Source of the DNA: an uncultured Mollicutes bacterium
Lineage (GTDB): Bacteria > Bacillota_I > Bacilli_A > RFN20 > CAG-288
DNA length: 64,000 nucleotides
Reading direction: 5' to 3'
Assembly (NCBI GenBank): GCA_900539865.1
Contig: UQDS01000003.1
Span: 90,789 to 154,788, forward strand
Within the stretch, counting starts at the first letter, position 1. The number at the start of each line of letters is the position of its first letter. Made by a program: the position numbers and the translations under genes. This document shows, piece after piece, positions 25,401-52,058 of this stretch. The notes beneath the pieces were generated by a model. That model was not told the origin of the DNA, searched no databases, and was given only the letters and a program-made list of their open reading frames with translations.

Positions 25401-26623
25401 TCCGGATTAGAAGCCGCAACGATATTGGCAGATTCATCAAAGTGAGATTCACCACCTAAGATACTGGTTTCCACCATGTCACGAGTCCAGTCGCCATAAG
25501 AAGCAGAGCTGGAGAAACTAGACTTACCAGAGTTACCGGCAGCATAGTTGACAATGACACCGGCTTTGGAAGCAGCGTTGATTGCTCTGTAACCGGCAGA
25601 TTCTGTATTGTCACCGCTGGTGTTAAGGTCCGTACCTAAAGAGAGGTTGACAACATCGAGTTTAAGTTTTGCAGCATCTTCCAACGCTTTGATAACCGCG
25701 CCTTCAGAAGCGCCGCCATCATAGTCCGGGAAGACCTTCATAACAGCGATTTGAGCTTTCGGGGCAATACCCTGGAAAACATCGCCGTTAGCACCTGCTA
25801 AAGAAGCGACGTGTGTACCATGTTCACTTCCGTTGCTTGTCGGATCGACATTGTTGTCGCCGCCGTCATAGTCGCGAGCGAAGAAGACTTTGTTGTTGAC
25901 GTGAGTGAAATAATTTTCCTTAAAGCCTTTGCTGATGACATCATCCTTGGTGACAGAATAATCACCGGCAGAAAGATCTTTAAAAGCGGCGGGGTTGAGT
26001 TTCTTTCCCTGACTGAGAAGTTTTTCTCTGGTTTCAGAACCTTCAACCTGGTTGAGATAAAGACCGGTATCGATGATACCTACTGTGATGTTTTTACCTT
26101 GCTGAGAAGAAACGCCTTCGCTGGCGCCTCTCTTCTTCAAAGCATCGGCAACCGCTTTGTTCGTGGCATCCATGGTTTCAGCAGAATAGTTTGCTAATCT
26201 GAGTTCACGGGTTTCATAACCAGCGTCTGTAGGAAGCATAGAGTCTAAACCAGTGCTGACAGCCTCCGGTCTAGCGTAGGTGTGAGAAGCCAAAACTTCG
26301 CTGACACCATTGACAGATTTGAGATAATCTTCATAACGGGCGTTGACTTTGATTTCAAAGCCGTTGAGAAGAGTGTCATAGGTATTAACCACTTCAAAAG
26401 AACCTTGTGGAAGGTTGTAAGTAATTTGGTTAAGAACTTTGTTACGGTTATACTTCAAGGAAGCAGCATCGTCTTTGAATACATCGCCATCACAAAGGAC
26501 AATGTATGACTTGTCTTCATCATTCTTAGCAAGTTTATCACTGATTTTTGTGTGACTTGCAGAATAGAAACTAAGTCCGAGGATGGTTGCTAAAGAAGCC
26601 ATAACGATAAATTGTTTTTTCAT
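22436..26623 (-). CDS. cell-envelope subtilisin-like serine protease (peptidase S8, lactocepin/C5a-peptidase-like) with PA-domain insert, G/S-rich stalk and C-terminal TM anchor
   Basis: It has a signal peptide and the catalytic motifs VGIIDTGL (Asp), HGTHVAS (His) and GTSMAAP (Ser). The C-terminus ...GGCGGSVVIASSTVGALALLGAAVAIFKKKADK has no LPXTG. Confidence 0.85.
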   Translation of the reverse strand: MKKQFIVMASLATILGLSFYSASHTKISDKLAKNDEDKSYIVLCDGDVFKDDAASLKYNRNKVLNQITYNLPQGSFEVVNTYDTLLNGFEIKVNARYEDYLKSVNGVSEVLASHTYARPEAVSTGLDSMLPTDAGYETRELRLANYSAETMDATNKAVADALKKRGASEGVSSQQGKNITVGIIDTGLYLNQVEGSETREKLLSQGKKLNPAAFKDLSAGDYSVTKDDVISKGFKENYFTHVNNKVFFARDYDGGDNNVDPTSNGSEHGTHVASLAGANGDVFQGIAPKAQIAVMKVFPDYDGGASEGAVIKALEDAAKLKLDVVNLSLGTDLNTSGDNTESAGYRAINAASKAGVIVNYAAGNSGKSSFSSSASYGDWTRDMVETSILGGESHFDESANIVAASNPEKAFFSSILTVQNKDASAPSAVAYNDQAKSSATQPNVTDRPLASLLPQGQSSADFEYVVIPGWGKDSDYEKVDRAHGIDTSSYNPKTDSYVSGKIAVVSRGTTSFVNKYLSAASHGAKALIVINNDPSVTFNFSMDFADNDPSIPIVFVFQNSKGIFGLPDENSGNEGKLTIATNTTQTASDGNMLASFSSDGGEANLDMGVTVAAPGKEIMGAVSAEYYNDGSNPMNPGYSFLTGYENMSGTSMAAPNFTGALALYLSERKPDNKGTLALQDAQAFENEKKVASMKAMSSTEKLLSTSGDGNYASPRVQGAGRIDVEKMLTSDSYITVPNEDTQGFENTVQSKVELKNSKSLKVDFSNTSDTTESYIEFDYTIHNDSAVERTYKPALSVMVPSLRVAVSHDEYDNMEESSKSEVIGYNKNSSDYPYGVGQITTTVLDDLVKKVELDNVVVPANGEISGKCKVRIDNLPFEKEFNDSQVENFKGTLKEYYQKYFEEAGGNYIEGYLDFEDVSTKKDVKSELSVPFMGFYGDYTKADAVEAFDFEREEGKLYGSDLVSNYVQNLADAYKKPYAYAGSTLAASASGLTSENFARINTFDESTKPNGTTYLTVTDGKNKDRIYAGAPGVSEHLIGTFFVNRAVSDANYEIINKDGKKIKGENIRDLYTYGTAAVAQDMGELMKSFLVANGTGFMIHRGYVDIDLSTVPEGEYTLKFNFKKIGTGTMQVKQYTLVVDKTAPTLAGLSITQEDGDDRLNIVTHGASFASVNVTVGREMEEIAGTDLTSTYFWINDSWKEEDKMFVELTDHAHNTQKILVKPSQIDFSVSSTFFTSKQDYDITLINASNGNYTYAVDILNAATGDSVIRKQDMTINMNIAKNLNVDDIKVFVDGESVQVNYNAETGLISFTFSKDAASFTINHAPASEGTGGGSTGGESSGGDSSSGGTTEGGTSTSEPEKGGCGGSVVIASSTVGALALLGAAVAIFKKKADK

Positions 26624-26880: not shown

Positions 26881-28074
26881 TTAGGCTTTCATCAATTGAT
26901 AAACGACACCGACAAGAGCTTCCATCTGATAAAGATCGACATATTCATAACGACCATGCATGTTGTAATCGCCTGTACCAAGATTCGGAGTAGGTAACCC
27001 CATGAAAGAAAGTTGACTTCCTGTCGTGCCACCGCGAATAGGTAAATAAATCACCGGAATATCACAGCTCTTCATCGCTTCTTCCATCTCTTTTTGAATT
27101 TCTGGATGCTGATCCATGATGACTTTCATATTGTGATACTGCTCTTGGAAAGAAAGTGAGATCGCTTCATATCCGATGCGCTGATTGATGCGTCTTGCAG
27201 TAAGCTTAGCAAGAGAGATCATCTCTTGTACCTGATGGTCATCAAAGGAACGGATGATATATTCTCCCTTTGCCTCTTCTTCACAACCTGAAATATCCAA
27301 GATGTGATAGAAAGGTTCTTTCTCATCCGTGTGTTCCGGACGCAAGAATTCCGGAAGAGCAGAATGGAAGTTCATCAAGACATTGATTGCGTTGACCATC
27401 TGATCTTTTGCACTTCCCGGATGAATCGACTTTCCTTTCACTTTGACTGTCATTGCATATGCGCTAAATGTTTCAATCGATGGTGCACGATAATCGCCTC
27501 CATCTACGGTATAACCATATTTTGCTTTCACAGTTTCTAAAGAGACATGTTTTGCATCTGCGCCGATTTCCTCATCCGTAGTGAAAATAATTTCTAAGGA
27601 ACGATGATTTTCATCACCTTTTAAGATCTTTTCTAAGGCTTCCATGATAATAGCCATACCGGCTTTATCATCACCGCCTAAGAGCGTATTGCCATCCGTG
27701 ACGATAATTTTATGTCCTCTTGACCAGGCTAACATCGGGAATTCTTTTTCAGAAAGATACATGCCCTCTTGCAACTCTACATCCTTACCATCGTAATCTA
27801 CTACCCTAGGCTTTACATCCTTGCCAGAACAAGCGGGCGCTGTGTCCATATGTGCGATAAAAGCAACCATATCTTTGTCGCTTTTTCCATAGAATTTGGC
27901 ATCGACAATACCAAATTGGTTAATGCTAATTTCATCGGGATGAAGCTGTTGTAATTCTAAAAGAACATGCTGAGCAAGATGAAACATCAAATCATTAGAG
28001 GGACCATCATCCCTTTCTTCTTTTGCGGTCGTTTCATAGGAAACATAGGTTAGAAATTTGTCTAAAACACTCAT
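26881..28074 (-). CDS. pepT: peptidase T (tripeptide aminopeptidase, M20B)
   Basis: It has the M20 metal-binding architecture with His/Asp/Glu ligand motifs (HMDTA, GGDDKAG, TTDEEIG) and is 397 aa long. Confidence 0.8.
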   Translation of the reverse strand: MSVLDKFLTYVSYETTAKEERDDGPSNDLMFHLAQHVLLELQQLHPDEISINQFGIVDAKFYGKSDKDMVAFIAHMDTAPACSGKDVKPRVVDYDGKDVELQEGMYLSEKEFPMLAWSRGHKIIVTDGNTLLGGDDKAGMAIIMEALEKILKGDENHRSLEIIFTTDEEIGADAKHVSLETVKAKYGYTVDGGDYRAPSIETFSAYAMTVKVKGKSIHPGSAKDQMVNAINVLMNFHSALPEFLRPEHTDEKEPFYHILDISGCEEEAKGEYIIRSFDDHQVQEMISLAKLTARRINQRIGYEAISLSFQEQYHNMKVIMDQHPEIQKEMEEAMKSCDIPVIYLPIRGGTTGSQLSFMGLPTPNLGTGDYNMHGRYEYVDLYQMEALVGVVYQLMKA

Positions 28075-28125: not shown

Positions 28126-31100
28126 CTACTTGTTATCGTTCGTACGGAAAATGAAGTTATAAACAGAGTACTTTCCGTTGAAATGATAAATTTCCGAGAA
28201 ACTATAGCTATGACCGATGGCGGAATCTTTCAAAGCAGAACTATCCAATGGTAATTTATCAATGATGGAGGGACCGATATGCAAACTCTTTTTAATTGTA
28301 GAATTGATGATTGGTGTGAGAATGAAATCATACTGTAACGCCTTCATTTCAATGTTCTTACTGGCAAGAATCAACTGTTCAAAGTTCATATGTCGCAAGG
28401 AAAGCGGAACTTCTAACTGGTTCAAAACGATGTAAGCATTAAACTCATCCGCGAATTTTTTCTTCATCGCAAAGCGATAAGTGTTCAACAATACAGCATA
28501 GTTTAACGCCTCTTTATATGCGCCTTCTGCCTGACCATCGAAAGTGAGGAAGACATAGCCGTTTTTACCATATGTTGTCTTCATTTCTAAGAAGGAGCGA
28601 GGGCAAGTTCTTTGCGCTGTGCGATCGATCAAATCATAGAAAAGCTTTTCTTTCGTATTGTCAGAACCGTCTTCTTTTGAGCTTGTGCATTTGACAAAGA
28701 TATAAATCAATTTCGTAGTCTTCTTTTCGTTTCTCTTTGCCACTTCTAAAGCTTCTGCAGTGTTATAAGGATCGGTGATAAAGTCATCAGAAACAATTTG
28801 GAAGCCCTTAGCATCTTCTACGATATTAAATTCTTTTCCATTAGTAGAGAAGGACTCTTCTTTCATATCTTGTAAAGATAAAAGATTTCCGATAACAACA
28901 TTATTTTTGTTTTCTTCATAACGTGGATTGATAACACGATAATTCCATCCATAATCACTATTTTTAATATTGAATTCTTTCTTTCTGATCAAGCGGCCTG
29001 CAAAATCAGTGACAAAGTCTTTCTCTTCTCCGATGATTTCATCCCAATAATCATATGCTTTCGCTTCGTTTTTGATCTCTTCATCAACATAAGAAACATC
29101 GCTTTGTCCGAGTTCTTCTACCTCGTTATCCGCAAGATTTAAATCATATACTTTTTCATTGTCTTTTCTAACCCAAGTGGTATGACTTAAAAGTGCTTCT
29201 TCGATATTATTTGTCTCTAATGCAAGAGCGTTTTCCGAAAGATAAGAAGTCATCTCATTATAGAAATTCAAATCTCCGCCCAAAGAGACATAAATCAATT
29301 TCATTTCTAAAGCCTTGTTTTTCTTTTGAGTTGTCTCTAATTCTTCTTCTGTTCTTGTCACTTTTTCTTTTAAGGTGACAAGTTCTTCTCCTAAGGACTT
29401 GTTTTCCGATAAGGAACTTTCATTCGCTAAGCGGATAGCAGCGAATTCTTTTTCATATTCTTCTAACTTCAATCCTTCTTGCGCAGATTTGCTTTCCAAC
29501 GCCTGCTTTTCTTCTTTCAATTGTTCTAATTCTTGTTGTTGTTCTTCTTTTAAAGAAGAAAGTTCACTTACTTGTGAAGTTAAAACTTCTAAATTTTCTT
29601 TCAATTGGGCATTTTCATGAGAAAATTCATTGCGTTCAAAAGCGATGCTATCAAAGCGTTCACTCGCTAATTTATCTTCTTCTTCCTCTCTTGCTTTTTC
29701 TTCTAAGAGAGCAGTCTTTTCCGCTTCTAACGCTTCTTTTGTTTGCTTGAGTGTTTCCAATTCCTTCAGCAATTCTTCTCTTTGTGTTTCTTGTGCTTTC
29801 TCTTTTAACAAAACTTGTTGTTCTCTCTCTGAAATTAAAACATTCAAAGAAGAAATTGTGTCGCGAAGTGTATTTTCGTCGTTTTCACAATTTTCCAATT
29901 TTTCTTTTTGCTCTTTCAATTCTTGAGCCATTTTTTCTAATTGCAATGTTTGTTCTTGAAGTTGTTGTTTCAGTTTTTCAGTTTCTTCTTCTTTCTCATT
30001 TAAAGAAGCCTCTTTCAAAGTTAACACTTCTTCTTGATTCTTTTCTAAAAGTAAAACTTTGTGCATGTAATCTTCTTTTTGAAGAGAAAGTGCATCTTTT
30101 TCATCGGTTAAAGTCTCCACCTTCATCTTCCAATCCGTGATTTCTTGCGATAAGTTTTCCTTCTCGTTCACAACATTTTGATAAGAACTCTTACATTCTG
30201 CTAACTGAGAAGACAATTCTTCTACCTGTTTATTTAAACGATTGATCTCTGTCTCATCGTTGATTGATTTCGCCATCAACGTTTCCGCTTTTGCTTTATA
30301 GGAATCCAATAGACCATCCAATTCAAAACGATTGGCTTCGCCAAGTTCTTTCATCTGTTGATTCAATTCTTGAATCTGTTGTTTCATGTGACATTTTTCT
30401 TTCGTCACATTTTCTAAATCAACCAAAAGCTGTTCTTTCGCACCCGAAAGATTGTCTTTTGCTTGTGCTAAAGTAGCAATCAATTCTTTGGCTGAAACCA
30501 AAGAATTTCTTGTGATTCCCAACTCTGTTTTAATTTCTTCAAAAGAAGATAGCAACGATTCATAATTCGTTTTTAATTCTTCTTTTTCCTGGATGAGAAT
30601 ATTCTTTTCATCCGTCAAATCAGCAACTTTTGTAAGTAGAAGTTCTGTTTCTTCCTCTTCAGAAGATATTTCTTCCTTTTTCTCTTCGTGGACAATTTCT
30701 GTCTCTGTTTCAAAAGGATCTACAACATCGATATCAACCGATGTCACTTCTTTTTCTAATCCATCTGTCAAAATAGTCTCGTGAGATAAAGTATCTTCTT
30801 CCTCTTCTTCCGTGATTTCGACAGGTTCCCCTTCAAAAATAATATCGCTGATTTCCTTATCATCCAAAATTTCTTCTTTGTCACCTAAATCAACTTCTTC
30901 GACGACTTCTTTTTGTTCAATATTTTTCGTAACTGTTTCCGGGTTGACCTCTTTTAAGATTTTTTCATCCGAAAGAGAAGTTTCTACTTGTGAAGCATTA
31001 AAAACAGGTGCTTGATCCAAATTTTGATTATCGGCGTTTGTCTCTTCTTCAAATTCAAAACCTACCGTATTTTCCGAAAAAACTTTATCGCGGATATTTT

Positions 31101-31542
31101 TTAAATTTGGAAGAATAAAGTGCTTTGTCTGTCCATTCGTTCCATAAAGTTTTTTGTGATATGCTAAAACTTTCTCAGTATCTAAATCGTCTTTACTCGG
31201 TGTACGATCCAGAGGGTGATTGAAATCAGTGACATCATAAATTGCAAAGGTACGGAATTTTTTGCCTTTGCGAACTTCAAAAATGCCATTGCCAATTTTA
31301 AAGGACATCTTGTCTCCGCGAATATTCTTTGTAAGCATGGAACAAGGGATTAAATTATCATCCGTGATCATGCCTCCGTTTGACAAAGGCTTAATCAAAT
31401 CGATGGTCCAACCATAATTTGAATTTTCGTTTTCAAAGTCTTCTAATTTCATCGGTTGCGCTGCATAATCGTATGCTACTTGCGCTTCACCAAAATATCG
31501 TTTCCAAATTTCAATAGATTTCGTTTGCTCCATAAGAAACAC
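28126..31542 (-). CDS. giant coiled-coil protein flanked by two copies of a degenerate (His-less) HNH-like domain
   Basis: The N-terminus W..YFGE..YDYA...NYGWTIDLIKPLSNGG...DNL.PC....KN..GDK aligns to the HNH core DHIxPxSxGGxxxxxNLxxLCxxCNxxK with His replaced by Leu and the Cys residues lost. A second copy lies after the coil (DYGWNYRVINP...NNVVIGNLLSL). Between them is a roughly 600-aa E/K/L/Q heptad-rich region and an acidic tract. Confidence 0.6.
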   Translation of the reverse strand: MFLMEQTKSIEIWKRYFGEAQVAYDYAAQPMKLEDFENENSNYGWTIDLIKPLSNGGMITDDNLIPCSMLTKNIRGDKMSFKIGNGIFEVRKGKKFRTFAIYDVTDFNHPLDRTPSKDDLDTEKVLAYHKKLYGTNGQTKHFILPNLKNIRDKVFSENTVGFEFEEETNADNQNLDQAPVFNASQVETSLSDEKILKEVNPETVTKNIEQKEVVEEVDLGDKEEILDDKEISDIIFEGEPVEITEEEEEDTLSHETILTDGLEKEVTSVDIDVVDPFETETEIVHEEKKEEISSEEEETELLLTKVADLTDEKNILIQEKEELKTNYESLLSSFEEIKTELGITRNSLVSAKELIATLAQAKDNLSGAKEQLLVDLENVTKEKCHMKQQIQELNQQMKELGEANRFELDGLLDSYKAKAETLMAKSINDETEINRLNKQVEELSSQLAECKSSYQNVVNEKENLSQEITDWKMKVETLTDEKDALSLQKEDYMHKVLLLEKNQEEVLTLKEASLNEKEEETEKLKQQLQEQTLQLEKMAQELKEQKEKLENCENDENTLRDTISSLNVLISEREQQVLLKEKAQETQREELLKELETLKQTKEALEAEKTALLEEKAREEEEDKLASERFDSIAFERNEFSHENAQLKENLEVLTSQVSELSSLKEEQQQELEQLKEEKQALESKSAQEGLKLEEYEKEFAAIRLANESSLSENKSLGEELVTLKEKVTRTEEELETTQKKNKALEMKLIYVSLGGDLNFYNEMTSYLSENALALETNNIEEALLSHTTWVRKDNEKVYDLNLADNEVEELGQSDVSYVDEEIKNEAKAYDYWDEIIGEEKDFVTDFAGRLIRKKEFNIKNSDYGWNYRVINPRYEENKNNVVIGNLLSLQDMKEESFSTNGKEFNIVEDAKGFQIVSDDFITDPYNTAEALEVAKRNEKKTTKLIYIFVKCTSSKEDGSDNTKEKLFYDLIDRTAQRTCPRSFLEMKTTYGKNGYVFLTFDGQAEGAYKEALNYAVLLNTYRFAMKKKFADEFNAYIVLNQLEVPLSLRHMNFEQLILASKNIEMKALQYDFILTPIINSTIKKSLHIGPSIIDKLPLDSSALKDSAIGHSYSFSEIYHFNGKYSVYNFIFRTNDNK

Positions 31543-31662
31543 TCCTTATAATCGCTTACTAAAATTATAGCAATTTATATATATATTTGGCACTAAATTT
31601 CTCTTTTTCTTTCTAAATTCTACCTTTTAATCATTTTCTTGAAATTGATTTTTTATGCTTTC

Positions 31663-31702
31663 AAAAAAAACGATATGTCTTCTTTGACAAAAACATATCG
31701 TT
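31663..31702 (-). terminator. rho-independent terminator of the GH2 gene
   Basis: The hairpin aacgatatg...catatcgtt is preceded on the plus strand by A8, which is the T8 on the minus strand. Confidence 0.6.
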
Positions 31703-31739: not shown

Positions 31740-33509
31740 TCAAAACATATCTGCAAACGCTTGATATAAAGTCGCATTAAGCTCTTGCATCTTTTTCACA
31801 TCAACTTTGCACTCACTTCTCGTAAGATCATATAAACCACAATATTCCGTCTCAACATCAGCAATTTGTGTATAGATGAAACCAGATAATCCTCTATCCT
31901 TTATTTGTGGTAGCAAGTCTTTTAAATAGAGCTTTTCAATTTTCTTCATCAACTTTTGTTTGCTTTTTACTTTACCATGTCCTGAGATTTTATCATAAGG
32001 AGCATTTTCAGGCTTTTTGCTTACTCCACCGCACTCCGAAATGATATAGCAGTGATGATATCTATTTTTTCTCTTCATCTTCGGACAATAATACGTATGA
32101 ATAGAGAAGAAATCTGATTTTTCCGCTTCATACCATCCTGACGTTGTATCGATCAATTGACAATCTTTAATTTCTTTTTTAAGTTGCTCATACATATGAG
32201 AAGCGTCAAACTGTCCCCATCCTTCGTTGAAGATTGTATAAATGATAATAGATGGGTGAGATGACAAGCGCTGAGAACACCCTTTCATCATTTGGATAAA
32301 CTCTTCTTTTCCTCTCTCGTTTGTTCTTCCTAATTGTTTTTCATTTGTCTTCTTTTCATCATTCAAACACGGAAAGACAACAGGTTTTGCAACATTGATC
32401 AAAGGAACTTTATCCCCACCGTTTGGAAAATCTTGTATCAATAGCATTCCTAACTTATCCGCATAATAATAAAATATTTCCGGTAAGATGGTGACATGAA
32501 CTCTCAAACAATTAAAACCCATTTCTTTGGCTATTACAATATCGCGTTCATACTCTTTGGCGCGCACCGGTGTCAAATTGTTATACCCGTAATATCCTTG
32601 ATCTAAAAGTCCCGAGAGAAAGAGTGGTTTTCCGTTCAGATACATGTAAGAACGACCGTCTTTTTCTCTTGTTTCAATCTGGCGAAAAGCAAAGTAGGAG
32701 CTCACTTCATCCAATCCCGGAATTTCGATCTTGCAATCATATAAATAGGGATCTTCTATCGACCAATAATGAATTTCATCTAACGTTAGTTCTGACCATT
32801 GATTTGATACAATTTCATAACTCTTTTCTCGCACATAAAATTTCAATGTCGTTTTATTTTTTGTCTCCACATATACGCAAAGCTTTTTTAATTTATGATC
32901 TACATCATATCGAACTGACTTTATATAATTTTCCTCTACAGATTCCATCCAAACAGGACGGAAAATACCTGTCGTAGTAGTGTAAGTGAAATACTTTGGC
33001 TGTAAAGATTGTTTTCCGCGGCTTAAATCATTTTGATCACTCCGGTCTCTAACCCTGATTACAAGATCAAACATCTTCGGTGTTTTATCGCTTAAAACAA
33101 CGTCAAATCCTTCATACATACCAACATGAGTAAGGACTTCTTTGCGGTCGATAAAGACAGTTGCTTCTTGATCAACGCCTTCAAAATGAATGATGATTTC
33201 CTTCTTTTTAAAGTTATCTGGAAGCATGACAATACGATGATAAAAAATATAATCTCCCGGTTCTGGCAACACTTTAACTCCGCTGTCTAACGCTTCTAAA
33301 GGAAATGGTACTTGAACTTTTTTATCATAACTGCGAGGAAGTTCTTTACTCTTACTGATGGATAAATCCCACAATCCATGTAAAGATACAAAAGAATCGC
33401 GAACCATCTGCGGACGAGGATACTCCGAAAGAGGTAATTCCTCATAGACGTTCATCTTTCCTGAAAAAAGATATCCCTGATTGATTCCATTTTGTTTAAT
33501 TGCTCTCAT
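31740..33509 (-). CDS. glycoside hydrolase family 2 (beta-galactosidase/beta-glucuronidase-like)
   Basis: It has a GH2 sugar-binding N-domain and a TIM-barrel region (NCLRVH..., ISECGG), and is 589 aa long. Confidence 0.75.
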   Translation of the reverse strand: MRAIKQNGINQGYLFSGKMNVYEELPLSEYPRPQMVRDSFVSLHGLWDLSISKSKELPRSYDKKVQVPFPLEALDSGVKVLPEPGDYIFYHRIVMLPDNFKKKEIIIHFEGVDQEATVFIDRKEVLTHVGMYEGFDVVLSDKTPKMFDLVIRVRDRSDQNDLSRGKQSLQPKYFTYTTTTGIFRPVWMESVEENYIKSVRYDVDHKLKKLCVYVETKNKTTLKFYVREKSYEIVSNQWSELTLDEIHYWSIEDPYLYDCKIEIPGLDEVSSYFAFRQIETREKDGRSYMYLNGKPLFLSGLLDQGYYGYNNLTPVRAKEYERDIVIAKEMGFNCLRVHVTILPEIFYYYADKLGMLLIQDFPNGGDKVPLINVAKPVVFPCLNDEKKTNEKQLGRTNERGKEEFIQMMKGCSQRLSSHPSIIIYTIFNEGWGQFDASHMYEQLKKEIKDCQLIDTTSGWYEAEKSDFFSIHTYYCPKMKRKNRYHHCYIISECGGVSKKPENAPYDKISGHGKVKSKQKLMKKIEKLYLKDLLPQIKDRGLSGFIYTQIADVETEYCGLYDLTRSECKVDVKKMQELNATLYQAFADMF

Positions 33510-33585
33510 AACTTTTCCTTTCTAGGCTTTGTTGCTATGCTTTTTTATTCTAGCAGTTTATCCGTCAAATGTGTCATCCTTAGCA

Positions 33586-33615
33586 TGATAAAAATGGCTA
33601 TCAAACGATAGCCAT
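33586..33615 (-). terminator. hairpin/terminator between MFS symporter and GH2 genes
   Basis: The hairpin atggctatc-aaac-gatagccat is followed on the minus strand by ttttatc. Confidence 0.45.
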
Positions 33616-33626
33616 TCATTTATTTG

Positions 33627-35135
33627 TCATTCTTCTTTTTGTTCTAAATCTACCTTTTGAATTTCTTTTTCTTGCATCTTCGCAAGGATTTCTTGTTCGT
33701 AAGCTTCTTGCTTCTTTTGATGTTCTATCGCCAACATCTCTTTATTGTGATTCCATTCTTTACCATGAAGAGGATAAAACCACATCGCGACAAAAGATAA
33801 TACTAAGAGGATACCTGTGATCAACATCCAACAAATAAAGAGACCATTTTTTGCACTATCCGGTTGACCGACCCAATCAGTGACACCATCGATTTTCTTA
33901 TCCGGTTGGAAGTTGAAAAAGCTTGTCATCATCCAGGGGAAGATCGCTTGTGCAATTGCACCAGCAGGTTTCGTGATCAAGGAGTTAATACCGGCATAAA
34001 CACCTTCTCTGCGCGCTCCGTTATCTAACTCATCCTTGTCCATGACATCGCCATTGACCATCGGAACCAAATATAGACCGCCGGAGAAACCGATACCGAT
34101 TAAGAAAAAGCTAAGGAGAAGAACATAGAAATACATTCCTAAGAAGGAAGAGAGAAGACAACCAGCTCCCATACAACCGACACAGATGAGGGTATTTACT
34201 CTTGTTCCTAATTTATCACGCATGAATACAAAGAAGAGAATTCCAGCGACAGCGCCGACGATTAAAGCGCCATATAAGATCAATATAGAAGTGGATCCCA
34301 TCCATCCGTTGATTCCAGCCATGGCGTCGTTTGCCCACATACCTTGCACATAAGTAAGACCGATCATCAAAGCGTTTTGAGCAAAGATGACAGTCCAAGA
34401 GAGCACTTCAAAATAGAGGAATGATTTATTTTTAATACACATCTTTAAACCTTCCCAGAAGCGGGGCTGTTTTTCCTCTACGACATAATCGTTTTCTTTA
34501 TAAAAGAATGTAGAAACAAAGATGACAATACCACAAATGATGCCGGCTGCCGCCATAATCCAAGGGAAAACCGCAGATTGTTCTTCGATGAGTTTATCGA
34601 GATAAGAATTGAGAACCATAGGAGCACCAAAAGAGATTAATGAGAATCCAATGTTCCATAAAAATATTTTATTTCTAGCTTTATTCGTTACCGCCATTTC
34701 GTAAGGCATGACATAAATTGCTGATGCTATAGCTGTGTAGACAATATCGAATAAAAACAGTGCTAACAGCTCTTGGAAGAAAAGAAACCAATTGTTTCCT
34801 TGCATGCTAGGAAAACTGATCCATGTGAGAGCAAAGAAGAGTGCAATCAGCGGTGCACCATAACGAATCCACGGTCTTCTTCTTCCTAACTTCGAGTGTG
34901 TTCTATCCGCTAAGAAGCCGTAGATTGGGTCGTTGATGGCATTCCAAATACCAAAGAGAATCCAAGATACTGCGTTGAATTTCGGATCTAATCCCAAGTG
35001 ATTGACAAAGAAATAAGTAACTGCACTTCCTTCAGCAAAAGCGACAAGTAGTCCGGTAAAGGCATTCGCAGCTCCGAGCCATGCAGCCGATGATGTCTTT
35101 ACCTTCTCCACATATTGCGGTTTATCATACTCCAT
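33627..35135 (-). CDS. MFS glycoside-pentoside-hexuronide (GPH) family sugar:cation symporter
   Basis: It has 12-TM topology with the GPH-type N-terminus (DRTHSKLGRRRPW). It lies adjacent to the GH2 gene. Confidence 0.75.
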   Translation of the reverse strand: MEYDKPQYVEKVKTSSAAWLGAANAFTGLLVAFAEGSAVTYFFVNHLGLDPKFNAVSWILFGIWNAINDPIYGFLADRTHSKLGRRRPWIRYGAPLIALFFALTWISFPSMQGNNWFLFFQELLALFLFDIVYTAIASAIYVMPYEMAVTNKARNKIFLWNIGFSLISFGAPMVLNSYLDKLIEEQSAVFPWIMAAAGIICGIVIFVSTFFYKENDYVVEEKQPRFWEGLKMCIKNKSFLYFEVLSWTVIFAQNALMIGLTYVQGMWANDAMAGINGWMGSTSILILYGALIVGAVAGILFFVFMRDKLGTRVNTLICVGCMGAGCLLSSFLGMYFYVLLLSFFLIGIGFSGGLYLVPMVNGDVMDKDELDNGARREGVYAGINSLITKPAGAIAQAIFPWMMTSFFNFQPDKKIDGVTDWVGQPDSAKNGLFICWMLITGILLVLSFVAMWFYPLHGKEWNHNKEMLAIEHQKKQEAYEQEILAKMQEKEIQKVDLEQKEE

Positions 35136-35156
35136 AAAAATTCTCCTTTTCTTGCA

Positions 35157-36077
35157 TTATATCTGCGCGATTTTTCTTAAAAAACTCTTCACAACTTCTT
35201 CGTATTTCTGCGGGTGTTTTTCTAAAGATTTTGCATGTCGTGCTCCCTCAAAGAAATGCAATTCTTTATAACCTTTTTCTTTGGCATCATAGAGATGCTG
35301 ACATTGAATAAACGGAACAAAATCATCTTCATGACCTGTCGTTAATAAAAGTGGAATATCACTCTCTTTCACATATTTTTCAGGATTGACATCATCGATG
35401 TGATAGCCGTGTTTTCGTTTGATGATATGATCGATAGGTTTGAGTAAAAACTGAGGCATGTACATTGTTTTTAACTTATATGAGAACAATTCTCTTAAAG
35501 AAGAGTAGGGACAATCCGCATGGACAAACTCTAGCGGATCATGATATTTAAGAACTTGTAAGACAGTAGCTCCTCCCATGCTTTCCCCCATGATTCCAAG
35601 TTGAATATCTGCGCCGTATTTCTCGTAGATAAAGCGGATAATACAATGAAGGTCTTCTGCTTCTTTATATCCCATTGTCACATCATTGTGAATGTTTTCT
35701 CCATGGCTTCTCTCATCGTAAAGAACAATGCTATAACCAAGTCTTTGATAAATCTGCGCATACTTGAGTTGTCCTTCTCTTGTCCATGTATAGCCGTGAG
35801 CGAAAATGACAAATTTTTTTAAGTTATTTCTAGTGATATCTCCGTGAATAATATATCCGTCCGGCATTTGGAATTCGACCTTAATTCTCTCCATCTGATC
35901 CACATCAGGAAGCAGTCCTTTCTTTTTATCTACGGACAGTGCTGTCTCATTGTCATAGCGGCGTGGATAAGACAAATAATGAACCAAAATATAAGGAAGA
36001 ATAAAGTAAAGAAGCAAAATAAAAAGGCTCAAAGATAAAATGACCAAAAGCAAAATATAATACCAAGCCATATCCAC
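35157..36077 (-). CDS. membrane-anchored alpha/beta hydrolase
   Basis: It has an N-terminal TM helix, the GxSxG nucleophile elbow (GESMGG) and C-terminal Asp/His residues. Confidence 0.7.
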   Translation of the reverse strand: MDMAWYYILLLVILSLSLFILLLYFILPYILVHYLSYPRRYDNETALSVDKKKGLLPDVDQMERIKVEFQMPDGYIIHGDITRNNLKKFVIFAHGYTWTREGQLKYAQIYQRLGYSIVLYDERSHGENIHNDVTMGYKEAEDLHCIIRFIYEKYGADIQLGIMGESMGGATVLQVLKYHDPLEFVHADCPYSSLRELFSYKLKTMYMPQFLLKPIDHIIKRKHGYHIDDVNPEKYVKESDIPLLLTTGHEDDFVPFIQCQHLYDAKEKGYKELHFFEGARHAKSLEKHPQKYEEVVKSFLRKIAQI

Positions 36078-36242: not shown

Positions 36243-37397
36243 TTAATAGCTCGACATTCTGATTGGAGTGATGATTTGATGGTTTTCAGGATCATCATTT
36301 TTCGCCATGAACATCTTTGTCGGCGAAGTGAAAACAAGTGTGAATTTATCAGACTTTAAAGCTTTGACAGCAGCTGTGACAAAATCGATATTAAAGGCGA
36401 TTTCAAAAATGCTTGCTCCTTCCGGAAGAGTAGCTACTGCTTCTTTCAACTTTTCTTGAGAATTACCATAGTTTGTACTTCTAGCAGAGAGTGTGACAGT
36501 ACCATCGCTGGTCAAAGAAAGTTTTACTTGCGAATTCTTATCTTCCGCAGAAGAAATAATTTTAACGCGCTCTGCCGCTTTCAAAAACTCTTCGGTTGTC
36601 ATCGATACGCTGTAGGGGAATGCAGGCGGAATCAAACGGTCGATAGAAGGGAAGTCACCATGTAAAAGACGAGTGGAAATCATGACAGAGTCAGAGACAA
36701 AGAGCGCTCTTTGTTCATCTAAATAGATGGTGCATTCTCCCGTTTCTGAAATACGAGTGACCATATCAAGAGACTTAACAGGACAAGTGAAAACAAAGTT
36801 TACATCCTGACTCGGTTCCGGAAGTGCTAATGAAGCCATGCGGAAGGAATCAGTTGCTAAGAAGACTAATTTACCGCCGATTGCGCGTACATTGATGCCT
36901 TGATAAAGTTCCTTCGGTCCTTTGATAGCAACAGCATAAGAAGTGGTGTCAAAGAGAATTTTGATATCTTTTAAAGGAACTTTGAAACCCTGTGTATCTT
37001 CCGGGATGTTAAGATTGACATCCGGATATTCTTCGCCTGCCTTTGTAACAAGATTGAAATCAGAAATTTCATCCGAAATATTTAAAAGACCGGTATCCAC
37101 CATTTCAAGAGTGACAATTTCACCGCCCAACTTACTGATCATATCTAAAAGTAAACGTGCCGGTGTCTGAATAAAGCCAGGTTCGATAGAGAAAATGATA
37201 TCATTTCCCTTTTCATCTTTCATGTTTTGGGTGACTTTAGTCGAGATAGAACCATCCGAAGCGATAACGCTGACGAAATCTACTCCTACTTCAATAAGAT
37301 AGTTCATGTATTGACTTTCTGCAGTCTTAGCGGGAATCGCTTGAGATGCGAAAGTGAGAAGTTTTAAAAAGTCTACTCTTTTGATGGTAAGTTTCAT
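36243..37397 (-). CDS. dnaN: DNA polymerase III beta sliding clamp
   Basis: It has three-domain clamp architecture, is 384 aa long and lies immediately downstream of dnaA. Confidence 0.9.
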   Translation of the reverse strand: MKLTIKRVDFLKLLTFASQAIPAKTAESQYMNYLIEVGVDFVSVIASDGSISTKVTQNMKDEKGNDIIFSIEPGFIQTPARLLLDMISKLGGEIVTLEMVDTGLLNISDEISDFNLVTKAGEEYPDVNLNIPEDTQGFKVPLKDIKILFDTTSYAVAIKGPKELYQGINVRAIGGKLVFLATDSFRMASLALPEPSQDVNFVFTCPVKSLDMVTRISETGECTIYLDEQRALFVSDSVMISTRLLHGDFPSIDRLIPPAFPYSVSMTTEEFLKAAERVKIISSAEDKNSQVKLSLTSDGTVTLSARSTNYGNSQEKLKEAVATLPEGASIFEIAFNIDFVTAAVKALKSDKFTLVFTSPTKMFMAKNDDPENHQIITPIRMSSY

Positions 37398-37868
37398 AAG
37401 GGAATACTCCTTTTCTCTTGCAAATATATCGATTTGAAAAAATATATTTTGCTAAATTAATATATATTTATATATATATTATTATACCACTTTTATACAG
37501 AATAATAAAGCGATATCCGCAGTGTTTCCTAGATTGTTATAGCAAAAAAAAAATGTTTTTTTATAAAAATTTTTTATTAATTTTTTATTAATAATAATTT
37601 AACATATTATTCTTATTATTATAGGCCGGTGGAGATGTGGATAAGTTGCTGTTTTTTATATTTTTTTTAAAATATTTTTTTGCTTAAAACACCTATATTG
37701 TCGGCAAATATGAGAAAATAAATCCAGTTATTATTTTTATTATATTTTGATGATTTAAGGTGGGTTAATAGTGGTGTTACTGGGATAACTTTTTTCTTTT
37801 GTGGATAACTTTTTCAATTGTTTTCAAACATTTAAAATTGAGAAATAAAAAAAGGAACCGAAGTTCCT
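37398..37868. promoter_or_regulatory. oriC part 2: dnaA-dnaN intergenic with DnaA boxes and AT-rich unwinding region
   Basis: Perfect TGTGGATAA boxes lie at 37636-37644 and 37800-37808, with a near-box at 37782-37789. Long A/T tracts run from 37540 to 37700. Confidence 0.7.
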
Positions 37869-39233
37869 TTAATTATTGTCTTTTATCATCTCTTCTAAGT
37901 GTTGAATAACTGATTTTAAGCTGTCATTGGTCGTTAACGAATTCTGGATTTTTTGAACGTTAGCCATAACGGTCGTATGGTCTTTTCCAAAGTATTTTCC
38001 AATACCTTGATAGGTCATCTGAAGCAAGTCACGAGCAAGGTACATAGCGATCTGTCTAGCCAATGCGATTTGACCGATGCGCGATTTGCTTTTGAGTTGA
38101 TTTTCTGTCAAAGAATAGTAAGATGCGACAACAGAAATAATTTTATCGATAGAAAGCGTACCATCGTTGATTTTCTTTTGTTCATCGACATGGAATACAT
38201 TCTTACAAAAGTTCATATCGATGACAGGACCGTGGGACGTTGTTGTAATAGCGAAGAGAAGGTTGGTAAATGCGCCTTCTAATTCACGGACGTTTTTACA
38301 ATAATTTTCAGCGAGATAATCTAAGACTTTAGGATCGAACATACTTTCTTCCAAGCCTTGAATTTTTATTTTCATCTTGAGAATATTGACCAAAGTATCT
38401 TTGTTTGGATTAGAGATATTGATGGTTAGACCACCGCTGAAACGAGAGATGAGACGGTCAGGAAGATCTTTAAGTTCGCTAGGAGAACGGTCAGAAGTAA
38501 GAATGATTTGTCTATTGTGAGAAACTAAGAAATTGAAGACATTGAAGAACATTGTCTGCGTATCGGTTTTACCGGCAAGAAATTGAATATCGTCGACTAA
38601 AAGCATGTCGACAGTAGTGAAGAAGTCACGTAATTCTTCGGCTTTTCTACCTTTGATATATTTCACATATTCGTTTAAAAAATCATCGGATGTAATATAA
38701 AGAACTTTCGCATCAGGATGTTTGGTTTGATATTCGTTACCAATCGCTTGAATCAAGTGGGTTTTACCTAAACCAGATTTAGAATATAAGAAGATAGGAT
38801 TGCTTTTCGCAGGTGTAGCAACAGCATATAAACCGGCGGTGTAGGCTGTTTTATTGTAGGGACCGACAACAAAGGAATCAAAGGTGTATTGCGGTTGCAA
38901 CGAGGAGTTTTTAAAGAATGTATCTGTGGCCTGTTGCAAGGCTTCTTTGCGTTTCATGAAGGTCTTACGATCTAAGATTTCTACTTGTATAGGAGTTTCT
39001 AAAACGCGGCTGAGATAATCTTGAATATTGGTCAACAAGGAGCTTTTAATGATGGTGGCATTTGTTTCATTATCAGTGATGAAAGTAGCTTTGTTATCCT
39101 GCAAAGATTTCAATTCAAAAGAGCCATCAGAAAAGATGACATCAAAGAGTTTGCTATCGATACTTTTACGAAGTTCTTCTGCTAAATTTTCAGATATTTC
39201 ATTGAGTTGACGTTCTTTGTTTGTTTCGTACAT
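37869..39233 (-). CDS. dnaA: chromosomal replication initiator protein DnaA
   Basis: It has the AAA+ Walker A (GKSGLGKTHL), Walker B (LLVDDIQF), the sensor/DnaA signature and a C-terminal DNA-binding domain. Confidence 0.95.
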   Translation of the reverse strand: MYETNKERQLNEISENLAEELRKSIDSKLFDVIFSDGSFELKSLQDNKATFITDNETNATIIKSSLLTNIQDYLSRVLETPIQVEILDRKTFMKRKEALQQATDTFFKNSSLQPQYTFDSFVVGPYNKTAYTAGLYAVATPAKSNPIFLYSKSGLGKTHLIQAIGNEYQTKHPDAKVLYITSDDFLNEYVKYIKGRKAEELRDFFTTVDMLLVDDIQFLAGKTDTQTMFFNVFNFLVSHNRQIILTSDRSPSELKDLPDRLISRFSGGLTINISNPNKDTLVNILKMKIKIQGLEESMFDPKVLDYLAENYCKNVRELEGAFTNLLFAITTTSHGPVIDMNFCKNVFHVDEQKKINDGTLSIDKIISVVASYYSLTENQLKSKSRIGQIALARQIAMYLARDLLQMTYQGIGKYFGKDHTTVMANVQKIQNSLTTNDSLKSVIQHLEEMIKDNN

Positions 39234-39310: not shown

Positions 39311-39594
39311 TTATCCACAAAAAAAGAGAGAAAGAAATAGACATTATCATATCCCCTTGAAAAAAGTTATCCACCAAGATTTTACGGGTAAAAAATGTGG
39401 ATAGGTATGATGTGGATAACTCAAAATGTGGATAAGTGGATAACTTTTGGTGGATAAGTATTTTATCCACAGGTTAATTTATCGATGATTTAGGAAAAAT
39501 TTTGACTTATCCACCACATTTATTTAGGCTTATCCACCAGCGGTGAATTACGTTGTTTTCGGTGGATAAGTCTGTGTATAAGTATGTGGATAAC
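39311..39594. promoter_or_regulatory. oriC part 1: cluster of at least 12 DnaA boxes upstream of dnaA
   Basis: Perfect TTATCCACA/TGTGGATAA boxes lie at 39311, 39411, 39427, 39463 and 39586. One-mismatch boxes lie at 39367, 39396, 39436, 39451, 39507, 39530 and 39561. Confidence 0.85.
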
Positions 39595-39826
39595 ATAAAA
39601 TGAAATGAATTGTTAAAAATAATTCTCCACCTGATTATTCACTTTTAATTTTAAACATTACTTCCATTTTATTTACAAACTTTATCAGTTTAAAATTATT
39701 TGTGGAAAACTTTGTCAAAACAGCAAAAATGCCCAATTGAATGCCGGCGTTTAAAATGAATCTCAATGATATAAAATAGAAACTATATTGTTATAATAGT
39801 AGACAGATAAAAGGAGATGAATTCCC

Positions 39827-51205: not shown

Positions 51206-52058
51206 TTTTTCTGCCTTCTTCTTCGTCTACTTGTTGATAATGAAGGCGATAGAGTTTATCCATCGGTGCTACTTTGTCGATGATTAATTTTGCAATTTCA
51301 TCTAACTTACTTTCTTCAGAATAATCGGCTTCACATAAGAAATCAACTCTTCTGTCTCTAAAGAGGGAAGCAGCAGGTTTCTTCTTTTTCTTATCGTAAA
51401 CAGCAATAGCGAAACCGCCGTTTGCACGAACTGTCTTCATACAGGGTACGTCTGTTTCACCATCTGCGATATAAACCATGTTTTGCATTGGAACAGGTTT
51501 GTCTTCATCTGGCATAGAGGCATTGACTTTGTTGTTTTCGTATAATTCTAAGACACCTTTGTTGATACGGTATAAGAATTGTGTCTTTGTAGTGTAATTG
51601 ACCGCGCTCTTTGGCCAGACAGCAGCACCATCCTTGTAGAGGAATTCACAGGCGAAGACTTCGCGAAAATAAGGAGCAATGCTTGATCCTTCAATGATTT
51701 CTTTATTTCCAGAAGAGATAACGTAGTGCTGAACTTCAACCCCGCGGCTAGCGCCATATTCATCTAATCTTTTAAACCATCCCTCGACGCCAGGAAAGTA
51801 CTGGATATCTTTTCCTAACTGAACAAACGCTTCTCTATTGATAGGAAGGTTTCGCTTTTTGGATTCTTCTATCATCAAATACATATATGCCAAAAGGGGA
51901 TCCATGTTTTCTTTAACAGATAAATCATTTGCGGCAGACCAAAATTCTCCCGTCTTAATATTCAATGAAGGAATGAAGGAATAATTCTGCATATCAGTAG
52001 TGCAGAGTGTGTGGTCGAAATCATAGACGAATGCTACAATCGTTTTTCCAGTGTTCAT
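51201..52058 (-). CDS. HAD-superfamily hydrolase
   Basis: It carries motif I DFDHT and motif IV GDGETD. Confidence 0.65.
   Translation of the reverse strand: MNTGKTIVAFVYDFDHTLCTTDMQNYSFIPSLNIKTGEFWSAANDLSVKENMDPLLAYMYLMIEESKKRNLPINREAFVQLGKDIQYFPGVEGWFKRLDEYGASRGVEVQHYVISSGNKEIIEGSSIAPYFREVFACEFLYKDGAAVWPKSAVNYTTKTQFLYRINKGVLELYENNKVNASMPDEDKPVPMQNMVYIADGETDVPCMKTVRANGGFAIAVYDKKKKKPAASLFRDRRVDFLCEADYSEESKLDEIAKLIIDKVAPMDKLYRLHYQQVDEEEGRKK

What the first reader, a model, noticed from the sequence alone, without database searches (positions are those of the whole stretch)
28126..31542. 1138-aa coiled-coil protein bracketed by two catalytically dead HNH-like domains
The N-terminal 90 aa align to the HNH nuclease core, DLIKPLSNGGMITDDNLIPCSMLTKNIRGDK against DHIxPxSxGGxxxxxNLxxLCxxCNxxK. 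The catalytic His is replaced by Leu and the Zn-binding Cys residues are lost. A second, more diverged copy of the same roughly 90-aa module lies around residue 820 (W.EIIGE..DFVTDFA...DYGWNYRVINP...NNVVIGNLLSL...GKEFNIVEDAKGFQIVSD against IWKRYFGE..AYDYA...NYGWTIDLIKP...DDNLIPCSML...GNGIFEVRKGKKFRTFAIYD). The two copies flank a roughly 600-aa uninterrupted heptad-rich coiled coil and an acidic E/D/T tract. A roughly 300-aa uncharacterised C-terminal domain follows. I do not recognise this architecture as a described family. A dead-nuclease fold used as a binding module on a long coiled-coil spacer suggests a structural or scaffolding role, possibly nucleic-acid-associated. The gene lies only about 6 kb from oriC.
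Basis: partly seen in the sequence, partly recalled or inferred. Interest (0 to 1): 0.7.

Follow-up and report, generated by a model that had tools for sequence, protein, structure and literature searches.

The report
Coiled-coil protein with dead nuclease modules
This is a real, conserved but unnamed 1135-residue protein of uncultured gut Bacilli, built from two inactivated HNH nuclease modules, a long acidic tract plus coiled coil, and a cyclase-fold end domain; its gene always sits beside dnaN near the replication origin, and its function is unknown.

Summary
The ORF is on the minus strand and most likely starts at the ATG at 31533, giving 1135 aa. It defines a family of about 45 clusters (at 50% identity) of 830-1330 aa proteins.

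- **HNH modules:** both are homologous to an active Cas9/IscB-type HNH clade (hhalign E=1e-27 and 1e-21) and to each other (E=5e-15). The catalytic His and the helix Asn are replaced family-wide. No Zn-binding cysteines were lost, because the active relatives have none.
- **Middle region:** a disordered acidic tract of about 160 aa is followed by about 455 aa of heptad helix with 2-3 predicted breaks. It is not 600 uninterrupted residues.
- **Relatives:** proteins of about 400 aa carry the same HNH, HNH-like and cyclase-like core without the coiled coil, often with an intact Asp-His. The window protein therefore looks like that core split by a roughly 700-aa insertion.
- **Synteny:** the order dnaN-(insert)-X-pepT is conserved in 17 of the 18 non-window homologue loci; the 18th holds no DNA upstream of X.

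Function is inferred only. I favour a non-enzymatic coiled-coil tether or scaffold, possibly linked to the origin or replisome. No curated family matches the protein.

The parts
28126..31533 (-). Coding sequence of protein X (1135 aa plus stop). The GTG at 31542 listed by the ORF finder is probably not the start.
   Evidence: ORF list. AAGGAG lies 8 nt before the ATG. The exact 1135-aa product is in public collections as 'hypothetical protein', in a cluster of 18; the 11 full-length members aligned are 99% identical.
31198..31533 (-). N-terminal inactivated HNH module (res 1-112). It has a helix, a ββα core and a β-hairpin extension (FEVRKGKxYGTF...DVTDRNHP). It is the most conserved part of the protein.
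   Evidence: phmmer hits to proteins carrying Pfam HNH/HNH_4/HNH_5 at the aligned region. hhalign against the active clade gives Prob 99.8, E=1.2e-27. The Asp-His His is replaced by L/Y/C/F/E/K and the TNxEK Asn by K/x across the family. AF2 pLDDT is 80-92 apart from one loop block at 65, with strands 42-46 and 61-65 and helix 66-72.
30658..31197 (-). Short helical linker (res 113-132) and disordered acidic E/D/T/V-rich tract (res ~133-292).
   Evidence: In the window (res 170-300) E and D make up 36% of residues. The res 113-292 segment has net charge -36. pLDDT is 30-50 with no secondary structure. Length is variable (99-238 aa) but composition is conserved in homologues.
29284..30657 (-). 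Heptad-rich coiled-coil region (res ~293-750).
   Evidence: The heptad register persists in four long runs, with shifts near 405-416, 493 and 578. AF2 gives helices at 293-421, 431-443, 465-621 and 638-750. The only database matches are coiled-coil noise (SMC, CENP-F), far below cut-offs. Length in homologues is 240-583 aa.
29098..29283 (-). Small conserved helical domain plus linker (res ~751-812; motif GG..xY...L....ENI...L..HP.W).
   Evidence: Family alignment. AF2 pLDDT is 89-95 over model residues 1-50. No Pfam match.
28774..29097 (-). Second, more degenerate HNH-derived module (res ~813-920; DFAGR...YGW..-..-NV.IAN...F.sNGh.F).
   Evidence: hhalign against the active HNH clade gives Prob 99.4, E=1.5e-21, and against the N-module E=4.6e-15. 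phmmer matches the HNH region of P0137. The model shows a ββα order: E863-867, E879-883, H884-889.
28129..28773 (-). C-terminal domain with a class III nucleotidyl-cyclase (CHD) fold (res ~921-1135). The canonical metal-binding Asp pair is absent. It has its own conserved set: K948, D999, E1008, N1017, Y1019, R1020, R1047, H1048, H1085, G1087.
31564..31593 (-). Promoter-like site upstream of X (GTGCCA-18-TATAAT with TG). It is preceded by a terminator-like hairpin at 31669-31702 that ends the upstream GH2 gene.
   Evidence: Consensus scan. This is a pattern match only.
26881..28074 (-). pepT (peptidase T, M20), 51 nt downstream of X. It is the conserved downstream neighbour.
   Evidence: The adjacency is conserved in all homologue loci.
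36243..39233 (-). dnaA (37869-39233) and dnaN (36243-37397). dnaN is the conserved upstream neighbour of X. In this genome the two are separated by an inserted hydrolase-MFS-GH2 block (31740-36077).
39311..39709 (.). DnaA-box cluster (14 boxes with at most 1 mismatch) upstream of dnaA. Two perfect boxes also lie at 37636 and 37800, between dnaA and dnaN. Together these are the likely oriC.
   Evidence: The pattern search found 46 matches against 16.6 expected, concentrated here. The cumulative GC skew reaches its minimum near 34-36 kb.

Best explanation
Protein X belongs to an undescribed, vertically inherited family of cytoplasmic proteins in uncultured gut and rumen Bacilli.

Shown:
- It derives from a ~400-aa three-domain core: a Cas9/IscB-type HNH nuclease, a degenerate second HNH copy, and a cyclase-fold domain.
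- A ~700-aa insertion (acidic disordered tract, coiled coil, small helical domain) now separates the first HNH from the rest.
- The nuclease catalytic residues are lost in both HNH modules.
- The cyclase-fold domain lacks the two-Asp metal site.
- The gene order dnaN-X-pepT is kept across homologues that share only 30-59% identity.

Inferred:
- X no longer cuts DNA or makes cyclic nucleotides.
- It acts as an elongated, probably dimeric, coiled-coil tether or scaffold. Its conserved ex-enzyme end modules would serve as binding modules. The N-terminal module would sit on a flexible acidic leash, and the HNH-like plus cyclase-like unit would sit at the other end.
- The persistent dnaN linkage makes an origin-, replisome- or nucleoid-associated partner the most likely target. 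This is the weakest step in the argument.
For: - Family and architecture: 207 hits, about 45 of them full-length, with both ends matched (alignments).
- HNH homology of both modules.
- Loss of the Asp-His His and of the helix Asn family-wide, with the structural Asn (N60) kept invariant.
- Cyclase fold. Missing Asp pair.
- ~400-aa relatives with the same core and no coiled coil, many with Asp-His intact.
- No enzyme-family, defence-family or ATPase match.
- No signal peptide or TM segment.
- Synteny with dnaN and pepT in 17 of the 18 non-window homologue loci (the 18th holds no upstream DNA). In the more distant homologues the gap between dnaN and X is 2-250 nt.
- The N-module is the most conserved segment (63% mean column identity over 18 clusters), as expected for a specific binding surface.
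Against: - No experiment or interaction prediction supports any partner.
- The protein is very acidic (about -98 net). Neither HNH module is basic (-1 and -9), which argues against simple DNA binding.
- No conserved β-clamp-binding motif was found.
- pepT, an S8 peptidase and DUF3899 are equally syntenic. The dnaN linkage may therefore reflect slow rearrangement near the origin rather than function. In the window's own clade a hydrolase-MFS-GH2 block separates dnaN from X.
- The cyclase-fold domain keeps a conserved polar constellation (K948, D999, E1008, N1017, R1020, R1047, H1048, H1085) that could still be a ligand or active site.
- The full-length model is of low confidence (pTM 0.38), so neither a hairpin nor an extended rod is established.
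Confidence: 0.4

Rival explanations
1. X is a cytoskeletal or architectural scaffold unrelated to DNA, comparable in role to the long acidic coiled-coil proteins of Mollicutes. The ex-enzyme end modules would bind proteins. The position next to dnaN would be inherited gene order without functional meaning.
For: - The protein is strongly acidic and has a long disordered acidic tract.
- The coiled-coil length varies from 240 to 583 aa.
- A homologue weakly matches a Mycoplasma 'helix-rich protein' model in its coiled-coil part.
- Unrelated genes (pepT, S8 peptidase, DUF3899) are just as syntenic.
- An insertion between dnaN and X is tolerated.
- Core-domain relatives occur in Mycoplasmopsis.
Against: - The tight or overlapping dnaN-X junctions in distant homologues suggest co-transcription with dnaN. 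Examples are a 2-nt gap in L013 and a 21-nt gap in L009.
- The end modules descend from a DNA-cutting domain.
- No membrane anchor or known cytoskeletal domain is present.
Confidence: 0.25
2. The cyclase-fold domain is still a working ligand-binding or catalytic unit, for example an NTP or cyclic-nucleotide sensor or an enzyme with a non-canonical site. X would then be a signalling protein whose coiled coil transmits or spaces that signal.
For: - A conserved polar constellation survives in the cyclase-fold domain: K/R948 100%, D999 93%, E1008 93%, N1017 100%, Y1019 100%, R1020 98%, H1048 86%, H1085 90%.
- Class III cyclase-like ATP-binding, non-catalytic proteins exist among the structural neighbours (6yii).
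- One ~400-aa relative gives a weak PycC match.
Against: - The canonical metal-binding Asp pair is absent.
- No sequence-profile similarity to any cyclase was found.
- The conserved residues were not mapped onto the cyclase active site by superposition.
Confidence: 0.15
3. X is part of a conflict or defence system, for example a sensor, decoy or regulator derived from a nuclease effector, rather than a housekeeping protein.
For: - The ~400-aa relatives keep an intact Cas9-type HNH and sit in variable, non-syntenic contexts. One is near a transposase in Mycoplasmopsis cynos.
- Pairing a nuclease with a cyclase fold is a recurring theme in defence systems (general knowledge).
Against: - X sits at one fixed chromosomal position across homologues that share only 30-59% identity, with no partner genes typical of defence islands.
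- There is no PADLOC match beyond coiled-coil noise.
- No phage homologue of the ~400-aa core relative P0101 was found; X itself was not searched.
- All nuclease residues are lost.
Confidence: 0.07
4. The HNH resemblance is a chance match of a short motif, and the protein is simply a generic coiled-coil protein such as an M-like surface protein or an SMC-like protein.
For: - Direct Pfam, NCBIfam and PDB sequence searches with X alone give no HNH hit.
- Fold searches list no HNH structure among the top 50.
Against: - Profile-profile E-values of 1e-27 and 1e-21 over ~92 aligned columns, against a clade whose members pass Pfam HNH thresholds.
- There is no signal peptide or LPXTG motif.
- SMC models match only the coiled coil, at 35.6 bits against a cut-off of 567.
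Confidence: 0.01

Closest known systems
Cas9/IscB-type HNH nuclease domain (Pfam HNH_4 PF13395 / HNH PF01844), as found in small standalone 'HNH endonuclease' proteins
   Same: Both modules of X share the ~95-aa module with these proteins. It consists of an N-terminal helix (W..FG...a.DfaGR.I), a ββα core (GW.iD-x-I.P...GG....NL) and a following β-hairpin (F.aNGk.Fqv.K). hhalign gives E=1e-27 for the N-module and 1e-21 for module 2. The active relatives match Cas9 and IscB models below threshold, in the HNH region only.
   Different: The general-base His of Asp-His is replaced by variable residues, and the helix Asn (TNxEK) by Lys or another residue. There is no RuvC domain, guide-RNA module or Zn-binding cysteines. 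X itself does not reach any Pfam HNH threshold.
Uncharacterised ~400-aa 'HNH endonuclease domain-containing' proteins with an HNH + HNH-like + cyclase-fold core (e.g. P0087, P0101; the Mycoplasmopsis cynos locus annotated WP_129720803.1 matches P0101 over 75% of its length)
   Same: The three globular domains occur in the same order, with shared motifs (DFAGR, LLNtY).
   Different: They lack the acidic tract, the coiled coil and the helical domain. Many keep the catalytic Asp-His. Their genomic context is variable and is not next to dnaN.
Class III nucleotidyl cyclase catalytic domain (CHD; adenylyl/guanylyl cyclases and the Pycsar uridylate/cytidylate cyclases)
   Different: Identity is 5-13%, and there is no profile match. 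The β1 position is 100% Lys/Arg, and the β2-β3 turn has Asp in only 36% of members, so the two-metal Asp pair is missing.
SMC / Rad50 / MukB-type chromosome proteins
   Same: Globular parts are separated by hundreds of residues of coiled coil inserted into a formerly contiguous unit, and the gene lies next to the origin.
   Different: There is no ABC ATPase head, Walker motifs or hinge. SMC models match only the coiled coil, at 35.6 bits against a cut-off of 567. An antiparallel hairpin was not predicted with confidence (pTM 0.38).

Membership tests
HNH (His-Me finger) endonucleases | Sequence homology to the HNH domain | tested here: met
   hhalign Prob 99.8 / E=1.2e-27 (N-module) and 99.4 / E=1.5e-21 (module 2) against a clade whose members pass Pfam HNH/HNH_4 cut-offs. 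X alone does not hit Pfam HNH.
HNH (His-Me finger) endonucleases | ββα core fold | tested here: inconclusive
HNH (His-Me finger) endonucleases | Catalytic general-base His (the Asp-His motif) | tested here: not met
   This position is invariant His in the active clade. In X-family N-modules it is L/Y/C/F/E/K/R/T/M, and in module 2 it is non-His.
HNH (His-Me finger) endonucleases | Metal-ligand Asn/His on the α-helix (TNxEK) | tested here: not met
   This position is invariant Asn in the active clade. X has T-K-N-I-R, and the family consensus is T.x.R.
HNH (His-Me finger) endonucleases | Nuclease activity | not testable with these tools
   Needs biochemistry.
Class III nucleotidyl cyclases | Cyclase homology domain fold | tested here: met
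Class III nucleotidyl cyclases | Two metal-binding Asp (end of β1 and the β2-β3 turn) | tested here: not met
   Column counts show β1 position 948 is K/R in 42 of 42 sequences, with no acidic column in β1. The hairpin position 992 is Asp in 15 of 42. Positions were assigned from the model's secondary structure, not from a superposition.
Class III nucleotidyl cyclases | Sequence-profile membership (Pfam Guanylate_cyc) | tested here: not met
   No Pfam hit at E up to 10. No PDB sequence hit with a 32-sequence profile.
SMC/Rad50-like ABC ATPases | Split ABC ATPase head (Walker A/B, signature motif) and hinge or zinc hook | tested here: not met
   Only residues 284-495 (coiled coil) match SMC models, at 35.6 bits against a cut-off of 567. 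There are no ATPase Pfam hits.
Gram-positive M-like surface coiled-coil proteins | Signal peptide and LPXTG wall anchor | tested here: not met
   There is no hydrophobic N-terminus; the maximum 19-residue Kyte-Doolittle mean is 0.79. The translation has no LPXTG motif and ends ...RTNDNK.
Known anti-phage defence systems (PADLOC-DB 2.0) | Match to a defence-protein model | tested here: not met
   The only hit is LmuB at E=0.0064 over the coiled coil.

The most novel reading that the evidence does not exclude
A nuclease plus cyclase-fold module, of a kind that elsewhere looks like a mobile or conflict-type enzyme, has been domesticated in one lineage of reduced gut Bacilli. It would now be an origin-linked, SMC-like-in-layout chromosome or replisome tether. 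A long coiled coil was inserted between the two HNH copies, all catalytic residues were lost, and the gene took the slot directly downstream of dnaN. In many Firmicutes that slot is occupied by yaaA-recF (general knowledge). This would be a new, non-ATPase class of origin-proximal chromosome-organising protein.
Probability: 0.15. Interest if true: 0.8.

Novelty: new variant of a known kind. Interest (0 to 1): 0.5.

Why it matters
The family is conserved, about 1100 aa long and unnamed. It is present across a whole lineage of uncultured gut and rumen Bacilli, and it is fixed next to dnaA and dnaN.

It gives a clear example of enzyme domains being recycled into non-catalytic parts. Two HNH modules and a cyclase fold have all lost their active-site residues. 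A formerly compact protein has also been split by a coiled-coil insertion, the same layout that defines SMC-type proteins.

If the dnaN linkage is functional, X is a candidate replication or segregation factor in organisms whose cell biology is otherwise inaccessible. If it is not, X remains a sizeable structural protein of unknown role that deserves a family definition.

The related ~400-aa proteins (HNH, HNH-like, cyclase-fold), many with an intact nuclease site, are also undescribed in the libraries searched here.

Tried and rejected
- **Direct family scans of X and its pieces.** Pfam and NCBIfam returned only coiled-coil noise, plus a NOV_C hit at E=0.019.
- **PDB sequence searches.** Searches with X and with family profiles found nothing relevant.
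- **Word-indexed homologue search.** All three searches returned nothing, including one with a 32-sequence alignment, although the family exists. The full HMMER scan found the family.
- **Genome-contig scan with X itself.** It found nothing. A six-sequence alignment worked.
- **afdb50 fold library.** It was unavailable.
- **Full-length AF2 model, to decide hairpin versus rod.** It was inconclusive, with pTM 0.38.
- **Clamp-binding motif (QLxLF-like) search across 42 homologues.** No conserved site was found.
- **Phage search with the ~400-aa relative.** No match.
- **Literature searches.** Searches for inactive HNH plus coiled coil, and for HNH plus cyclase, found nothing on this family.
- **Rfam on the whole window.** No match.
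- **Antisense ORFs inside X (29375-30140, + strand).** I reject these as products of the low-complexity E/K/L coding strand.


Full report
**1. The observation**

The window holds one long ORF at 28126..31542 on the minus strand. An AAGGAG sits 8 nt upstream of the fourth codon, an ATG at 31533. The 1135-aa product from that ATG is the form present in public collections. There it is labelled 'hypothetical protein' and forms a cluster of 18 sequences from gut metagenomes; the 11 full-length members I aligned are 99% identical. All residue numbers below use this 1135-aa form.

The protein has no hydrophobic N-terminus and no TM segment. Pfam and NCBIfam scans of the whole protein and of its four pieces gave only sub-threshold coiled-coil matches and no HNH hit.

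**2. It is a family, and the HNH reading is right**

A full HMMER scan of 1.84 billion cluster representatives was run with the two globular ends joined. It found 207 proteins at E≤0.001. About 45 of these are 830-1330 aa long and match at both ends, so they share the architecture (alignments).

More than 100 further hits are small proteins that match only residues ~5-92. Of the ten of these scanned, eight carry Pfam HNH, HNH_4 or HNH_5 exactly at the aligned stretch. P0137, whose HNH stretch matches module 2, does too.

The alignment of X with these proteins runs over the whole module. It covers:
- an N-terminal helix (W..FG...a.D),
- the ββα core (GW.ID-H-I.P.S.GG.....NL......TN.EK),
- and a β-hairpin (F.ANGK.FQV.K).

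Profile-profile comparison gives three results:
- N-module family against the active clade: Prob 99.8%, E=1.2e-27.
- Second module against the active clade: Prob 99.4%, E=1.5e-21.
- The two modules against each other: E=4.6e-15. BLASTP within X alone gives E=5e-6.

In the active clade the Asp-His pair, two Asn and a Lys are invariant. In the X family:
- the His is replaced by L/Y/C/F/E/K/R/T/M, with no conservation;
- the helix Asn is replaced;
- the structural Asn (N60) stays invariant.

Module 2 is more degenerate still. 'Catalytically dead' is therefore a family-wide property.

**3. The middle of the protein**

- Residues ~133-292 are acidic (the res 113-292 segment has net charge -36) and are predicted disordered, with pLDDT 30-50.
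- Residues ~293-750 carry a persistent heptad pattern in four runs, with register shifts near 405-416, 493 and 578.
- The full-length AlphaFold2 model gives helices at 293-421, 431-443, 465-621 and 638-750.

The coiled coil is thus ~455 aa with breaks, not ~600 uninterrupted residues. Its length varies from 240 to 583 aa among homologues. The full-length model has pTM 0.38, so I cannot say whether the rod is extended or folds back on itself.

**4. The C-terminal region**

An AlphaFold2 model of residues 741-1135, built with a 32-sequence family alignment, has mean pLDDT 90.7. It contains a small helical domain, module 2 and a ~215-aa terminal domain.

- Foldseek gives the same cyclase hits for both models.
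- There is no sequence-level similarity to cyclases.

In the family alignment β1 has no acidic column, and position 948 is Lys or Arg in 42 of 42 sequences. The β2-β3 turn is variable, with Asp in 15 of 42. The canonical two-Asp metal site is therefore missing. This assignment uses the model's secondary structure, not a superposition.

The domain does keep its own conserved polar residues: K948, D999, E1008, N1017, Y1019, R1020, R1047, H1048 and H1085. Ligand binding, or an unorthodox activity, cannot be excluded.

**5. Where the architecture came from**

Local re-alignment of the hits shows proteins of ~400 aa with HNH, module 2 and the cyclase-fold domain in direct succession, with no coiled coil. 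Examples are P0087, P0101, P0108, P0137, P0140 and P0164.

- Many keep Asp-His. Their HNH matches Cas9 and IscB models below threshold.
- Others of 430-890 aa have lost it.
- One relative lies in a variable context, not near dnaN.
- A Mycoplasmopsis cynos locus that matches P0101 is annotated 'HNH endonuclease domain-containing protein' and lies near a transposase.
- None was found in phage genomes.

X is best read as this core split between its two HNH copies by a ~700-aa insertion. The two HNH modules did not originally 'bracket' anything.

**6. Genomic context**

In the window the gene order on the minus strand is:
- dnaA (37869-39233),
- dnaN (36243-37397),
- an α/β-hydrolase, an MFS transporter and a GH2 glycosidase,
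- X,
- pepT,
- a 1395-aa S8 peptidase,
- DUF3899.

DnaA boxes cluster at 39311-39709, with two perfect boxes between dnaA and dnaN.

I looked at 18 loci of homologues from other species, which share 30-59% identity with X. dnaN lies upstream of X in 17 of them; the 18th (L016) holds no DNA upstream of X. pepT lies immediately downstream in all 18.

- In the more distant homologues dnaN and X are 2-250 nt apart.
- In the window's wider clade an MFS-GH2 block is inserted between them. X then has its own promoter-like site after a terminator-like hairpin.
- The records are labelled Bacilli, Erysipelotrichaceae, Candidatus Enterosoma and the like.

The S8 peptidase and DUF3899 are just as syntenic, however, so conserved order is only moderate evidence for a replication-linked function.

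**7. What it most likely does**

Shown:
- X is cytoplasmic.
- Both HNH active sites are lost.
- The cyclase metal site is missing.
- The protein is dominated by a disordered acidic tract and a long coiled coil.
- It is vertically inherited at a fixed, origin-proximal position.

Inferred: X is a non-enzymatic, elongated, probably dimeric tether or scaffold whose ex-enzyme ends act as binding modules. The N-module is the most conserved part (63% mean column identity), which suggests a specific partner. I favour an origin-, replisome- or nucleoid-associated partner because of the dnaN linkage and the DNA-cutting ancestry of the modules. My confidence in this whole explanation is about 0.4.

Against it:
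- The protein's net charge is about -98, and the modules are neutral to acidic.
- No conserved clamp-binding motif exists.

The rivals are a DNA-unrelated cytoskeletal scaffold, a nucleotide-sensing or unorthodox enzymatic role for the cyclase-fold domain, and a conflict-system derivative. A chance HNH match and an M-like surface protein are both excluded.

**8. Comparison with known families, and novelty**

X is related to HNH nucleases, but it fails their catalytic criteria. It has the fold of class III cyclases, but it fails their sequence and metal-site criteria. It resembles SMC-type proteins only in layout, with no ATPase head. No model in Pfam (2025), NCBIfam (2026) or PADLOC covers it or its ~400-aa relatives, and two literature searches found nothing.

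I rate it a new variant of known kinds: known folds in an undescribed architecture, with function unknown. Interest is moderate. The anatomy is clear and unusual, but the biology rests on inference in uncultured organisms.

Noticed in passing
window 31740-36077 (minus strand); compare L008, L009, L013, L025-L027: The hydrolase (S9/S15-like), MFS transporter and GH2 glycosidase block lies between dnaN and X in the window's species. L007, L014 and L017-L024 also carry a GH2 homologue between dnaN and X. The block is absent in the more distant homologues, where X follows dnaN directly. It looks like an insertion into an ancestral dnaN-X operon.
   Followed up: partly
L001 93-1564: In one metagenome the same species carries a Tn916-type Xis and integrase immediately upstream of dnaN. 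A conjugative transposon appears to have integrated in the oriC region.
   Followed up: no
L003 2465-3973: The MFS transporter gene upstream of GH2 is split into two ORFs (164 and 330 aa) in the NCBI MAG GCA_900760975.1, but it is intact (502 aa) in the window. This is a likely frameshift or assembly error.
   Followed up: no
L009 4614-7980: In the genome encoding homologue P0076, dnaA is inverted relative to dnaN, so the two genes are divergent. The dnaN-X-pepT order is kept.
   Followed up: no
L021 (record CAVCCX010000008.1); also L016, L017: One contig is labelled Bacteroides uniformis, and two are labelled Clostridia or Clostridiales. All carry the pepT-S8 block that follows X in the Bacilli loci, and L021 and L017 also show dnaN and GH2 upstream. 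Bin contamination or mislabelling is likely.
   Followed up: no
window 22436-26623 and 18885-21794 (minus strand): Two very large secreted-type proteins lie downstream of pepT: a 1395-aa S8 peptidase with a PA domain, and a 969-aa protein with a Big-like domain. The S8 peptidase and the adjacent DUF3899 gene are syntenic with X in most homologue loci long enough to reach them.
   Followed up: partly
proteins P0089, P0091-P0094: Some small relatives carry two to four tandem copies of the same HNH module. Tandem duplication of this module therefore recurs outside the X family.
   Followed up: partly
window 52001-54000: This is the lowest G+C stretch of the window (0.295 against ~0.37 around it). 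I did not examine it.
   Followed up: no
tool behaviour: The word-indexed protein search and the first genome-contig scan returned neither X itself nor any relative. Yet X is in the collection and the family is found by the full HMMER scan. Negative results from those two tools should not be read as absence of homologues.
   Followed up: yes
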